A DNA stretch of 64,000 nt from Candidatus Latescibacterota bacterium. Lineage in GTDB: Bacteria > Latescibacterota > UBA2968 > GCA-2709665. A model generated the notes under the pieces. The model was given only the letters and a program-made list of their open reading frames with translations, was not told the origin of the DNA and ran no database searches. The position numbers were made by a program, and so were the translations under genes. Below are positions 1,755-14,442 of this stretch, piece after piece (position 1 is the stretch's first letter; each line of letters starts with the position of its first letter). Location of the stretch: the NCBI GenBank assembly GCA_963662665.2, contig CAXXJS010000040.1, forward strand, positions 256,001-320,000, written 5' to 3'.

Positions 1755-1826
1755 GGGCAAATTTGCTTTTCTACGGAGACGGGTCGATCTGAGAGTAGCG
1801 AGGCCATAGACGCAGGCCACGTTTAA

Positions 1827-2773
1827 CCTTGATTCGCAAGTGCGCCGTGAAAAGGCGCGGAACTTCAGTGGGTGAGAGTCCCACCCGACAGATGTTGCCA
1901 CAGTCGGAAGCAATCGGAGCGGAGACGTAGGTAACGACATCTCCGAAGCCTCCGGTGTAGAGGGTCGCCAGGCGACTCGGCGAGTATGTGGGCTGAAACG
2001 TGAGTAAACGCTGAGCAGGCCTCGAAAAGGGTAATGCGGGAGCCGACCCGGCTTGCGAACGGGGAAGGCCGCCGTCGTTGGGGAAGCAGGCAACGAGAGC
2101 ACCCAACGGTCCCGCCGGGGTAATGGCGGAGGCACGCATACAAGGAGATCCGACGCAACACGGGAAGCCCCAGCGGTGGTGGAGAGCCACCAACCGGAAG
2201 CCCGTGAGGGCCAGGCCGGGCCGTATGGGGTGGCGGACAGGCTCGTAGTACCTGTGATGCCGGGTAACGCCGGCGGAGGAAAGGGGCCTGACTTCGGATG
2301 TGCTTGTGAAGGGGACAACTGTCGGGAGAGTGGCGCAAGCCTATAACCTCCTCCAGAATAAGACGAGGCGACTCCAGATCAAGCTAAGGTTTCAGGTGAA
2401 GCTGTCCGGGCAGATCGGGCAGTGTGTACCTGAAGGCGATGTCCGTCGGAGAGCCGGATGCGGTAACTCCGCACGTCCGGTTCGACGAGCGGGATGTGGA
2501 AACGGAGCAGGGAGGGGCTATTGAGGCACCGCCAGACGAAAGGGGCGGGAACAGACAGGCCACTCCTAAACCACCGCGCCACATCTCGACTCTACTTCTT
2601 CGGGGAAGTAAAACCGAATATATGCAAGTAGATAAAGGCGATTTAACTTCTGATTACCAGGATACACCAGGTCACTGGACGTGGACTGAAAAAACGTCCT
2701 TTTTAACGACCGTTACGCCCCGTTTCAGGGGTTTTCGTCGCGTTGCCGAGTTGCTGTTTTTTTCACATTGAGG
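1827..2773 (+). mobile_element. MITE copy 1 (191 bp without the intron), interrupted by a group II intron
   Basis: Segments 1827-1839 + 2596-2773 match 14251-14442 almost base for base. Ends are CCTTGATT...ATTGAGG (imperfect TIR). TTAA flanks both sides (1823-1826, 2774-2777). Confidence 0.8.
1840..2595 (+). mobile_element. ORF-less group II intron (756 nt)
   Basis: 5' GTGCG. Domain V GAGCCGGATGCGGTAACTCCGCACGTCCGGTTC (2451-2483) with the AGC triad. Domain VI ends ...CGACTCTAC. EBS1 TTGCGAA (2053-2059) pairs with exon TTCGCAA. The intron-free allele at 14251 confirms both boundaries. Only a ~110-nt IEP remnant (KTRRLQIKL) survives in DIV. Confidence 0.95.
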
Positions 2774-2891
2774 TTAAGAACTGTATCGCCGTGCGGGTGC
2801 GACAAAGTCACGTCAGAGAAATGATGGTTGCGTCCCGACCACTGAATTTTCGCCATGGCGGAGGGACCCGTCATCGCACCACGCCTCACAT

Positions 2892-14250: not shown

Positions 14251-14442
14251 CCTTGATTCGCAATTCTTCGGGGAAGTAAAACCGAATATATGCAAGTAGA
14301 TAAAGGCGATTTGACTTCGAATTACCAGGATACACCAGGTCACTGGACGTGAACTGAAAAAACGTCCTTTTTTGACGACCGTTACGCCCCGTTTCAGGGG
14401 TTTTCGTCTCGTCGCCGAGTTGCTGTTTTTTTCTAATTGAGG
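14251..14442 (+). mobile_element. MITE copy 2 (intron-free, 192 bp)
   Basis: Direct-orientation copy of 1827-1839/2596-2773; flanks are CTTA / CTAA. Confidence 0.8.

What the first reader, a model, noticed from the sequence alone, without database searches (positions are those of the whole stretch)
1827..2773. ORF-less group II intron that targets the terminal repeat of a MITE (a non-autonomous element inside another)
Seen: a complete ribozyme (GTGCG start, DV, DVI, AC end) with its RT ORF cut down to ~110 nt. It is inserted exactly 13 bp inside the left end of a 191-bp TTAA-flanked element. The EBS1 loop TTGCGAA (in stem CCCG...CGGG, 2047-2063) is perfectly complementary to the element's TTCGCAA. 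An empty copy of the same element, with an intact target CCTTGATTCGCAA|TTC, lies 12 kb away. Established: group II introns home through EBS-IBS pairing and can be mobilised by an IEP supplied in trans. Inference: the intron is programmed to the end sequence of an IS/MITE family, so every copy is a landing site. It may either hitchhike on transposition or disable the element by splitting its end, a group II counterpart of IStrons.
Basis: partly seen in the sequence, partly recalled or inferred. Interest (0 to 1): 0.8.

Follow-up and report, generated by a model that had tools for sequence, protein, structure and literature searches.

The report
ORF-less group II intron homing into MITE ends
A small self-splicing intron that has lost its own reverse transcriptase sits in eight near-identical copies at the same spot, 13 bases inside the end of a miniature transposon, in an uncultured Latescibacterota genome; it is a clear new example of known group II intron behaviours, not a new kind of element.

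Summary
Window 1840-2595 is a 756-nt group II intron with no ORF. It lies 13 bp inside the left end of a 191-bp element (1827-1839 + 2596-2773, TTAA on both sides). An empty copy lies at 14251-14442.

- **The element is a real MITE.** I found 77 BLAST hits in the genome. It has a 13-bp imperfect TIR. Its 4-bp YTAA-type duplications are identical in 34 of 50 complete copies.
- **The intron targets it.** All 8 ORF-less copies (at least 99.87% identical) sit at the same MITE position, in MITE copies only 86-97% alike. This points to independent retrohoming, not transposition of a composite.
- **A possible trans helper exists.** Three full-length sisters carry the only intact RT/maturase genes in the genome.
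- **The pairing rule holds across the genus.** EBS1, EBS2 and EBS3 covary with their targets. These include the same MITE site, an IS5-like IS end (again 13 nt inside) and another inverted repeat.
- **The ORF-less lineage is old.** Its domain IV remnant is conserved in five species. It also occurs in a single-contig genome with no group II RT.

Close precedents are RmInt2 in the ISRm17 inverted repeats and the Thermosynechococcus ORF-less introns. I found no support for the hitchhiking or IStron-like reading. Verdict: new variant of a known kind.

The parts
1823..1826 (+). Left target-site duplication (TTAA) of the MITE
   Evidence: Same 4 nt at 2774-2777. 34 of 50 complete empty copies have identical 4-nt flanks, against a shuffle mean of 11.3 and a maximum of 20 in 2000 shuffles.
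1827..1839 (+). MITE left terminal inverted repeat (13 bp), which is also the intron's 5' exon recognition sequence
   Evidence: CCTTGATTCGCAA, against the reverse complement of the right end, CCCCAATTCGAAA, in the family alignment.
1826..1830 (+). IBS2 (ACCTT, -14..-10); spans the last base of the duplication and the first four bases of the TIR
   Evidence: Complementary to the AAGG(G)T loop at 2027-2032. That loop changes with the target in relatives: AAGGC with GCCT, ACTGC with CAGT, AAGCT with GGCT or AGC. Read by eye.
1833..1839 (+). IBS1 (TTCGCAA, -7..-1)
   Evidence: 7 of 7 Watson-Crick pairs with EBS1. Over 26 distinct intron/target combinations, cognate pairs average 6.42 of 7 against 3.60 for non-cognate.
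1840..2595 (+). ORF-less group II intron (756 nt)
   Evidence: Rfam hits. 8 copies at least 99.87% identical in the genome. No RT frame: tblastn with the IEP finds only the 3 full-length copies.
2025..2032 (+). EBS2 loop (AAAAGGGT)
   Evidence: Covaries with positions -14..-10 of the targets. By eye, no formal count.
2047..2063 (+). EBS1 hairpin; EBS1 = 2053-2059 (TTGCGAA)
   Evidence: Local fold gives a 4-bp stem with a 9-nt loop. Covariation with the 5' exon.
2123..2123 (+). EBS3 (A), pairs with the first 3'-exon base
   Evidence: The column GTA[N]TGG reads A with +1 T, C with +1 G, T with +1 A, G with +1 T. Paired in 25 of 26 distinct combinations.
2290..2445 (+). Domain IV remnant (about 155 nt) specific to the ORF-less lineage
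   Evidence: Not alignable to the full-length copies by BLAST. Highly conserved in 12 ORF-less copies from 5 genomes, but only 2 pairs show compensatory change. Contains the hairpin homologous to the IEP start region, with the ATG lost.
2451..2483 (+). Domain V
   Evidence: Rfam alignment. Invariant in 12 relatives. Fold.
2487..2593 (+). Extended domain VI with bulged A at 2589
   Evidence: Folds. The A is unpaired between paired columns, 7 nt from the 3' splice site.
2596..2773 (+). Rest of the MITE (178 bp); 2596 T = IBS3
   Evidence: 94% identical to the empty copy. 100% identical over 178 nt to the empty copy at G000:C10:386190.
2774..2777 (+). Right target-site duplication (TTAA)
14251..14442 (+). 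Empty copy of the MITE with an intact perfect target (CCTTGATTCGCAA|T)
   Evidence: Flanks are CTTA / CTAA, one mismatch.

Best explanation
Window 1840-2595 is a non-autonomous (ORF-less) group II intron retroelement. It is En-minus and IIB-like, because it uses EBS3. Its three exon-binding sequences read the outermost 13-14 bases of the left end of an IS5-like MITE plus the next base: IBS2 A|CCTT, IBS1 TTCGCAA, IBS3 T. The intron therefore reverse-splices into MITE copies exactly at the inner edge of the 13-bp terminal inverted repeat.

Because it has no reverse transcriptase, copying must depend on a protein supplied in trans. The only candidates in this genome are the three intact 441-aa RT/maturase genes of the full-length sister introns, whose ribozymes are 95% identical to it.

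The eight copies are the product of a very recent burst of independent retrohoming into MITE copies that had already diverged. The MITE, about 66-77 copies here and present across the genus, serves as a dispersed, selectively neutral set of landing sites.

Across the genus the same ORF-less lineage and its full-length relatives have changed EBS1, EBS2 and EBS3 to follow different repeat ends.

Shown: the anatomy, the copy pattern, the covariation and the presence of the IEP genes. Inferred: splicing, mobilisation in trans, and any effect on MITE transposition.
For: (1) Ribozyme identity: RF02003 at 89.7 bits; domains V/VI found and folding with z -5.1.

(2) Site specificity: 8 of 8 ORF-less copies and 1 of 3 full-length copies lie at CCTTGATTCG..A|TTC(T)T in the MITE. 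Of 66 MITE copies with a left part, 9 are occupied and 57 empty. IBS1 is perfect in 6 of 8 sites occupied by ORF-less copies, against 11 of 57 empty ones (Fisher p = 0.003).

(3) Recent independent insertions: the introns differ at 2 positions in all. The occupied MITEs are 86-96.6% alike, and for all 9 an empty copy is the nearest or tied-nearest neighbour. The 3' exons differ right at the junction; for example C23 carries the other MITE subfamily.

(4) The MITE is real: TIRs, plus 4-nt duplications identical in 34 of 50 copies, including rare ones such as TTCA x3 and TAGA. It is present in 13 of 14 other genomes of the genus and 0 of 8 of the sister family.

(5) Trans helper: tblastn finds exactly 3 IEP genes, all uninterrupted. 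They have RVT_1 + GIIM and no endonuclease domain, and score 354 bits against TIGR04416.

(6) Pairing rule across genomes: EBS1 pairs 6.42 of 7 for cognate targets against 3.60 for non-cognate, and EBS3 pairs in 25 of 26. G009 has ORF-less copies at the same MITE position with IBS1 TCGTCA and EBS1 TGACGA. A G013 full-length copy lies 13 nt inside the right end of a famA-like IS.

(7) Old ORF-less lineage: the same domain IV remnant occurs in 12 copies from 5 genomes.

(8) Weak hint of intron RNA: contigs of two RNA libraries (X18, X20, two studies) cover only 1840 to about 2590, including the ORF-less-specific domain IV, and none of the flanks.
Against: - No splicing or mobility was observed. 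No exon-exon joint was seen in the RNA libraries, whose flanks had no cover at all, and DNA carry-over in those libraries is not excluded.
- RF00029 is below its gathering score.
- None of the 3 full-length copies has the ORF-less EBS1. Their own EBS1 loops fit their flanking exons poorly (5 of 7, only 3-4 of them Watson-Crick) and look swapped between copies. This could be misassembly of a short-read MAG, or recombination.
- 11 perfect targets are still empty.
- The intron strand is antisense to both neighbouring genes, and no sigma-70-like promoter was found upstream. This scan does not cover other promoter types.
- Retention of an IEP-binding DIVa hairpin is only suggested: the local folds are no better than shuffles.
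- ORF-less copies also occur in a single-contig, 99%-complete genome (G009) with no group II RT. A resident IEP is therefore not always present.
- The genome is a MAG: 92% complete, 5.4% contamination.
Confidence: 0.8

Rival explanations
1. The MITE plus intron (947 bp) moves as one unit by the transposase (hitchhiking; an IStron-like composite).
For: The 13-bp TIR and both duplications remain intact around the composite in most occupied copies. A 1553-bp IS with a similar TIR core and a CTAA duplication is present.
Against: Occupied MITE bodies are 86-96.6% alike and scattered in the MITE tree, each next to empty copies, while the introns are at least 99.87% identical. No two occupied copies share an identical MITE body.
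Confidence: 0.04
2. The intron was present in the ancestral MITE and has been lost precisely from most copies.
For: The empty copy at C10:386190 is 100% identical over 178 nt to the occupied copy in the window.
Against: The introns are far younger (0-1 differences in 756 nt) than the MITE bodies that carry them (3-14% divergence). The intron family uses other targets in other species.
Confidence: 0.02
3. The intron spreads among MITE copies at the DNA level, by gene conversion or homologous recombination using MITE homology, without an RNA intermediate.
For: 178 bp of MITE homology lie downstream. The ribozyme tree places the G000 full-length copies next to the G000 ORF-less copies, which could reflect recombination between copies.
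Against: Only 13 bp of homology lie upstream. There is no co-conversion of the adjacent 3' exon; C23 keeps the other subfamily sequence right at the junction. Occupied sites are enriched for a perfect IBS1, and EBS/IBS covariation across genomes is the signature of reverse splicing.
Confidence: 0.04
4. The copies are now inert relics: the burst is over and the ORF-less introns no longer splice or move. The helper IEP may not recognise them, or may be absent as in G009.
For: 11 perfect targets remain empty. The full-length copies have different EBS1 loops and odd EBS1/exon fits. Three genomes carry ORF-less copies with no IEP found: G009 (one contig), G006 and G005.
Against: 5 of 8 copies are identical, and the catalytic elements (domain V, bulged A, EBS loops) are intact. 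The IEP genes are intact. RNA-library contigs cover relatives of the ORF-less form.
Confidence: 0.1

Closest known systems
RmInt2 of Sinorhizobium meliloti GR4, homing into the inverted repeats of ISRm17 (passages read in PMC4615759 and PMC5894124)
   Same: An En-minus group II intron whose natural copies all lie within the terminal inverted repeats of a transposable element, with IBS1, IBS2 and IBS3 (-14 to +1) inside the repeat. The same logic applies: many neutral, dispersed targets. The G013 full-length copy inside a famA-like IS end is the direct analogue.
   Different: RmInt2 encodes its own IEP and its host is an autonomous IS. Here the intron is ORF-less and the host is a 191-bp MITE, so both partners are non-autonomous. 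RmInt2 uses both repeats, whereas in G000 only the left end is used. Class membership (RmInt2 is class D) was not tested here.
Thermosynechococcus elongatus TeI3 ORF-less introns (passages read in PMC2882425)
   Same: An ORF-less lineage derived from one deletion, outnumbering the ORF-containing copies and mobilised by sister IEPs in trans. EBS sequences have diverged to new targets. There is a preference for inserting into other mobile elements.
   Different: A different phylum. Here the lineage is shared by at least 5 species of a genus, targets transposon ends specifically, and occurs in at least one complete genome without any group II IEP. Trans-mobilisation is experimental there and only inferred here.
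RmInt1 in ISRm2011-2 (passages read in PMC5894124; abstract of PMC1802570 from the search listing)
   Same: An En-minus intron whose homing site is a multi-copy IS. Intron insertion has been proposed to limit spread of the IS.
   Different: As I recall, that target lies inside the IS rather than in its terminal repeat. The passages I read do not give its position, so this difference rests on no call. RmInt1 is ORF-containing.
IStrons (group I intron fused to an IS200/605-type IS; abstract of PMC4227781 from the search listing)
   Same: A self-splicing ribozyme physically associated with a DNA transposon.
   Different: IStrons are a single chimeric unit moved by the transposase, and the ribozyme is group I. 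Here two independent elements are nested, and the evidence is against joint movement.
Thiomargarita 'MITEtron' (passages read in PMC4853749)
   Same: An intron and a MITE nested in one another.
   Different: The nesting is the reverse (a MITE inside a group I intron), and no homing specificity was shown.
C.te.I1 of Clostridium tetani, the 'sole known' bacterial ORF-less intron without an IEP in its genome (passages read in the review PMC4424553)
   Same: G009 carries six ORF-less copies, and no group II RT was found in its single-contig genome.
   Different: C.te.I1 is a single intron in a gene. The G009 copies are multi-copy, and three of them are nearly identical (L027 and L029 identical, L028 a little different), so they were copied recently by some RT that is not in the assembly.

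Membership tests
Group II intron (ribozyme) | Conserved 5' GUGYG and a domain I-IV core | tested here: met
   GTGCG at 1840. RF02003 at 89.7 bits against a gathering score of 49.
Group II intron (ribozyme) | Domain V (34-nt hairpin with AGC triad and 2-nt bulge) and domain VI with a bulged branch A | tested here: met
   Found by RF00029, but at 35.7 bits, below the gathering score of 40. Fold z -5.1 with bulged A at 2589. Invariant in 12 relatives.
Group II intron (ribozyme) | EBS1/IBS1, EBS2/IBS2 and EBS3/IBS3 pairings with the flanking exons | tested here: met
   EBS1 pairs 7 of 7; covariation over 26 combinations; EBS3 pairs in 25 of 26. EBS2 by eye.
Group II intron (ribozyme) | Self-splicing or IEP-assisted splicing | not testable with these tools
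   No exon-exon joint was seen. The flanks had no RNA cover.
ORF-less (non-autonomous) group II intron mobilised in trans | No RT ORF in domain IV | tested here: met
   Domain IV is about 155 nt. tblastn with the IEP hits only the 3 full-length copies.
ORF-less (non-autonomous) group II intron mobilised in trans | A closely related IEP-encoding intron in the same genome | tested here: met
   3 copies with ribozymes 95% identical and intact 441-aa IEPs. Not met in G009, G006 and G005.
ORF-less (non-autonomous) group II intron mobilised in trans | Retained IEP-binding site (DIVa) | tested here: inconclusive
   A block of about 29 nt homologous to the IEP start region is kept. The local folds are not better than shuffles.
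ORF-less (non-autonomous) group II intron mobilised in trans | Mobility that depends on the trans IEP | not testable with these tools
   Inferred from 8 near-identical copies at cognate sites.
MITE (IS5-like) | Short, non-coding, multi-copy | tested here: met
   191 bp. 77 BLAST hits, 50 of them complete. Genus-wide.
MITE (IS5-like) | Terminal inverted repeats | tested here: met
   CCTTGATTCGYAA against CCCCAATTCGAAA, 10 of 13.
MITE (IS5-like) | Target-site duplications | tested here: met
   The 4-nt flanks are identical in 34 of 50 copies, against a shuffle mean of 11.3 and a maximum of 20.
MITE (IS5-like) | A parent or helper IS with matching ends | tested here: inconclusive
   G000:C57:49338-50890 is 1553 bp with a DDE_Tnp_1 frame and a CTAA duplication. 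It shares the TIR core (14 of 17 with the MITE right end) but no internal similarity.
IStron-like chimeric mobile unit | Ribozyme and transposon move together as one element | tested here: not met
   The occupied MITE bodies are diverged and interleaved with empty ones, while the introns are near-identical.
Bacterial intron class (A-F, CL, ML) | IEP and ribozyme phylogeny against reference introns | not tested
   Only this much is known: no En domain, EBS3 in use, Rfam subfamily D1D4-4, and best plasmid-borne relatives 50-65% identical and annotated ltrA.

The most novel reading that the evidence does not exclude
[quoted passage not shown] EBS1, EBS2 and EBS3 track variants of the terminal inverted repeat, so the intron always lands at the inner edge of the 13-14 nt end and splits the transposase-binding site. 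It would then act as a parasite of parasites that curbs MITE and IS mobility. This lineage can also persist and multiply in genomes that have no resident group II reverse transcriptase (G009), which implies a helper RT from outside the chromosome or of another kind.
Probability: 0.25. Interest if true: 0.7.

Novelty: new variant of a known kind. Interest (0 to 1): 0.5.

Why it matters
- **Double dependence.** This is a clean natural case of one non-autonomous element (an ORF-less intron that needs a sister's RT) living inside another (a MITE that needs an IS transposase), in a phylum where I know of no described group II introns (recalled). The only search touching this was, where 'Latescibacter' was one of four terms (two required); none of its 20 listed papers held that term, and no search paired it with 'group II intron' alone.
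- **ORF-less introns may be under-counted.** The 2015 review (passages read, PMC4424553) describes bacterial ORF-less introns as rare and short-lived. Here the lineage is shared by at least five species, outnumbers its ORF-containing relatives in G000 (8 to 3), and occurs in a complete genome with no group II RT.
- **A natural retargeting series.** The set of EBS1, EBS2 and EBS3 variants with matching targets gives a ready-made rule set for an En-minus intron.
- **A testable question.** Does insertion into the TIR silence the transposon end, as has been proposed for RmInt1 and ISRm2011-2?

Tried and rejected
- **Parent IS search by fuzzy TIR pairs.** Too noisy. It yielded only one real candidate, C57:49338-50890. 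The two abundant IS families in G000 have other ends and are not the MITE's parent: famA (1701 bp, 15 copies) and famB (about 1641 bp, 9 copies).
- **IS-C against the MITE consensus.** No internal similarity, so the candidate is a possible helper but not a deletion parent.
- **G006 locus L036.** No transposase lies next to the intron, and the TIR-like 5' exon there could not be assigned to an element.
- **Promoter and terminator scans.** No sigma-70-like promoter upstream of the intron. The MITE hairpin was not called as a terminator. Nothing can be concluded about transcription.
- **DIVa hairpin folds.** No better than shuffles.
- **Intron class.** tblastn against plasmids gave only generic 'ltrA' annotations, so the class is left unassigned.
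- **Ribozyme tree.** A FastTree of 22 distinct cores, midpoint-rooted. The G000 full-length copies group with the G000 and G006 ORF-less copies instead of with the other full-length copies. I could not decide between recombination among copies and weak signal, so I do not use the tree to claim that the ORF-less form is monophyletic. That claim rests on the shared domain IV remnant.
- **Reads.** All runs were Logan contigs. They cannot phase EBS1 with the exons, so the apparent EBS1 swap in the full-length copies stays unresolved. No empty-site joint and no spliced-exon joint were seen, and RNA cover of the flanks was zero, so absence of splicing is not shown. DNA contigs of X5 and X10 bridge the 5' junction, and one of X5 reaches 30 nt past the 3' junction, one short of the tool's 31-nt rule for bridging; the site is occupied there too.
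- **TPP riboswitch hit inside the intron (19.9 bits, E 0.39).** Chance.
- **Not done.** Supplementary files of the papers were not opened. Figure S1 of PMC4615759, which gives the exact RmInt2 positions in the ISRm17 repeats, may bear on how close that parallel is.
Full report
**What is at the coordinates**

Window 1840-2595 is a 756-nt group II intron that begins GTGCG and ends CTAC.
- Rfam's D1-D4 model RF02003 matches 1866-2003 at 89.7 bits, against a gathering score of 49.
- The domain V/VI model RF00029 matches 2449-2595 at 35.7 bits. This is below its gathering score of 40, with E 4.6e-5 in the local search.
- The same stretch folds far better than shuffles (-67.9 kcal/mol, z -5.1, 0 of 200). 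It forms a canonical domain V and an unusually long domain VI with a bulged A at 2589, seven bases before the 3' splice site.
It is the exact complement of the last seven bases of the 5' exon.
- The intron interrupts a 191-bp element (1827-1839 + 2596-2773) flanked by TTAA on both sides. An uninterrupted copy lies at 14251-14442.

**The host element is a real MITE**

BLAST of the empty copy against the window's own genome (a 4.86-Mb MAG in 66 contigs, 92% complete, 5.4% contamination) gives 77 hits, 50 of them complete.
- The ends are imperfect inverted repeats: CCTTGATTCGYAA against CCCCAATTCGAAA.
- The 4-nt flanks are identical in 34 of 50 complete copies. Shuffling the right flanks among copies gives a mean of 11.3 and at most 20 in 2000 trials. 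The matching flanks are mostly CTAA or TTAA but include TTCA (3 copies), TAGA, CGAA and others. That is the signature of DDE transposition with a YTAA-type preference.
- The family occurs in 13 of 14 other genomes of the genus and in 0 of 8 genomes searched in the sister family.
- A single 1553-bp IS at G000:C57:49338-50890 has a DDE_Tnp_1 frame, a CTAA duplication and a similar TIR core, but no internal similarity to the MITE. It is a possible helper, not a proven parent.
- Two abundant IS families in the genome (famA, famB) have other ends.

**The intron is aimed at the MITE end**

The genome holds 8 ORF-less copies. They differ at only two positions in all, and five are identical. It also holds 3 full-length copies of 1975 nt whose ribozyme parts are 95% identical to the ORF-less form.
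- All 8 ORF-less copies and 1 full-length copy lie at the same position, after base 13 of the MITE left end.
- A second full-length copy lies in the opposite strand of a MITE, at an internal look-alike site.
- The third lies outside any MITE.
- Of 66 MITE copies with a recognisable left part, 9 are occupied and 57 empty. Eleven of the empty ones carry the perfect TTCGCAA.
- A perfect IBS1 is enriched among sites occupied by ORF-less copies: 6 of 8 against 11 of 57 (p = 0.003).

**Independent homing, not a travelling composite**

The 178-nt MITE bodies of the nine occupied copies are only 86-96.6% alike. They are scattered over the MITE tree, and for every one of them an empty copy is the nearest or tied-nearest neighbour. 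The window's copy is 100% identical to the empty copy at C10:386190.

The 3' exon differs right at the junction; C23, for example, carries the other MITE subfamily. Near-identical introns in diverged hosts mean recent, separate insertions. This argues against three alternatives: transposition of a MITE+intron composite, ancestral presence followed by loss, and spread by gene conversion. Gene conversion would in any case have only 13 bp of upstream homology to work with.

**How the target is read**

I aligned domain I of 14 variants from six genomes with their exons. Besides EBS1, this shows:
- an EBS2 loop (window 2025-2032) that changes with positions -14..-10 of the target (judged by eye);
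- a single EBS3 base (window 2123) that pairs with the first 3'-exon base.

Over 26 distinct intron/target combinations, EBS1 forms 6.42 of 7 pairs with its own exon against 3.60 with others. EBS3 pairs in 25 of 26.

In this MITE, IBS2 is A|CCTT (the last base of the duplication plus the first four of the TIR), IBS1 is TTCGCAA and IBS3 is T. The intron therefore reads exactly the conserved terminal 13-14 bases. That explains why it lands at the inner edge of the TIR.

**The same habit across the genus**
- In G009, ORF-less copies sit at the same MITE position, but with IBS1 TCGTCA and EBS1 TGACGA.
- In G006, the ORF-less copy (97% identical to ours) follows TTAG|CCTCAATTCGAAA, with EBS1 TTTCGAA.
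- In G013, a full-length copy lies 13 nt inside the right end of a famA-like IS that carries its transposase.
- Further copies in G007 and G013 follow CTAA plus 13 nt of another sequence.
- Many copies in G001, G009 and G007, both ORF-less and full-length, lie at the inner end of a different 25-nt repeat ending in ATCCATG, with EBS1 CATGGAT. In one locus this repeat occurs as an inverted pair.
- A few copies sit at ectopic sites that share only IBS1.

**The helper**

tblastn finds exactly three IEP genes in the genome. All are uninterrupted (100, 100 and 99.3% identical) and all lie in the full-length copies. The 441-aa protein has RVT_1 and the maturase domain, has no endonuclease domain, and scores 354 bits against TIGR04416. 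These are the only candidates to splice and mobilise the ORF-less copies.

The ORF-less domain IV (about 155 nt) is nearly invariant in 12 copies from five genomes. It keeps a block homologous to the IEP start region with the ATG lost. The lineage therefore stems from one old deletion and is maintained. Whether that block is the IEP-binding site is not shown.

**Things that do not fit**
- None of the full-length copies has the ORF-less EBS1. Their own loops also look swapped: the C16 copy carries AATCGAA, the perfect partner of the TTCGATT exons of the C61 and C24 copies. Those two copies carry TTTTGGA, which pairs through wobbles with the C16 exon TTCGGAA. In the long-read, single-contig relatives the full-length copies fit their exons. 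I therefore suspect misassembly of this MAG, but recombination among copies is not excluded.
- Only 6 of the 15 genomes of the genus (G000 included) have a group II RT/maturase over the family cut-off. G009 is a single contig, 99% complete. It has six ORF-less copies, three of them nearly identical (L027 and L029 identical, L028 a little different), and no group II RT. Its one RT-like gene is a DRT8-type defence RT. G006 and G005 (drafts) also show none.

**Reads**

Contigs of two DNA data sets from other studies (X5, X10) bridge the 5' junction with 0-2 differences, and a contig of X5 reaches 30 nt past the 3' junction, one short of the tool's 31-nt rule for counting a bridge. The site is therefore occupied there as well.

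Contigs of two RNA libraries from two studies cover only 1840 to about 2590 and nothing in the flanks. One of them, X18, is labelled sponge metagenome. The cover includes the ORF-less-specific domain IV (X20, 2306-2474, 14 differences). These contigs come from relatives that are 90-95% alike. This is a weak hint that the intron RNA accumulates. It does not show splicing, and DNA carry-over is possible.

**Comparison with what is known**
- Passages I read in PMC4615759 and PMC5894124 describe RmInt2, whose copies all lie within the inverted repeats of ISRm17, with IBS1-3 inside the repeat.
- Passages in PMC2882425 describe an ORF-less lineage from a single deletion. It is mobilised in trans, has diverging EBS, and prefers to insert into other mobile elements.
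- The review PMC4424553 (passages) calls bacterial ORF-less introns rare and names a single case without a resident IEP.
- My three searches found no paper describing a group II intron that homes into a MITE. The nearest is a MITE inside a group I intron (PMC4853749). Subscription journals are not covered, and I did not see any supplements.

**Verdict**

The hitchhiking or IStron-like idea is not. The find combines two published behaviours in a new phylum, with three extras:
- both partners are non-autonomous;
- the ORF-less lineage is old and genus-wide;
- it occurs without a resident RT in one complete genome.

I rate it a new variant of a known kind, with interest 0.5.

Noticed in passing
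G000:C61:80849-82823, C24:8271-10245, C16:124183-126157 (L011-L013): The EBS1 loops of the three full-length introns look swapped relative to their 5' exons. The C16 copy's AATCGAA fits the TTCGATT exons of the C61 and C24 copies. Their TTTTGGA fits the C16 exon TTCGGAA through wobble pairs. Either the MAG is misassembled or the copies recombine.
   Followed up: partly
G009 (single contig): ORF-less copies at L027-L032; RT gene at L123:745-2313 (-): Six ORF-less copies (three nearly identical: L027 and L029 identical, L028 a little different), but no group II RT/maturase was found in a 99%-complete one-contig genome. The only RT-like gene is a DRT8-type defence RT (530 bits in PADLOC).
   Followed up: partly
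L014, L017-L019, L021, L027, L029, L041-L044: A second target family: a repeat of about 25 nt (..ATCCTGTNNATCCTGTNNATCCATG) with the intron at its inner end. In L044 an inverted copy lies about 60 nt downstream, so it may be another small inverted-repeat element.
   Followed up: partly
G000:C24:7973-10273 (L012): A full-length intron inserted in the opposite strand of a MITE at an internal look-alike of the left end. A further partial MITE lies beside it.
   Followed up: no
L120 (G013): A famA-like IS has inserted into the IEP ORF of an intron copy (the IEP match stops at residue 305 and the IS starts 6 nt later), so intron and IS disrupt each other.
   Followed up: no
G000: famA e.g. C10:121086-122786 (15 copies); famB e.g. 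C4:29738-31378 (9 copies): Two abundant IS families, each with a DDE_Tnp_1 transposase. famA makes 4-nt NTAR duplications. famB has the TIR CCTAGGAGTCTGCGCC.
   Followed up: partly
G000:C9:10021-10323, C36:43133-43446, C30:42475-42736: MITE copies in tandem or nested next to partial copies.
   Followed up: no
window 2195-2299: Sub-threshold TPP riboswitch match (19.9 bits, E 0.39) inside the intron. Taken as chance.
   Followed up: no
core tree of 22 intron variants: The G000 full-length ribozymes group with the G000 and G006 ORF-less ribozymes rather than with full-length copies of other species. This may be concerted evolution between autonomous and non-autonomous copies.
   Followed up: no
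G000:C5:13735-13948 and C10:148815-148958: Two short matches (78% and 70% identical) to the first 136-214 nt of the intron. They may be remnants of other copies or of another intron lineage.
   Followed up: no
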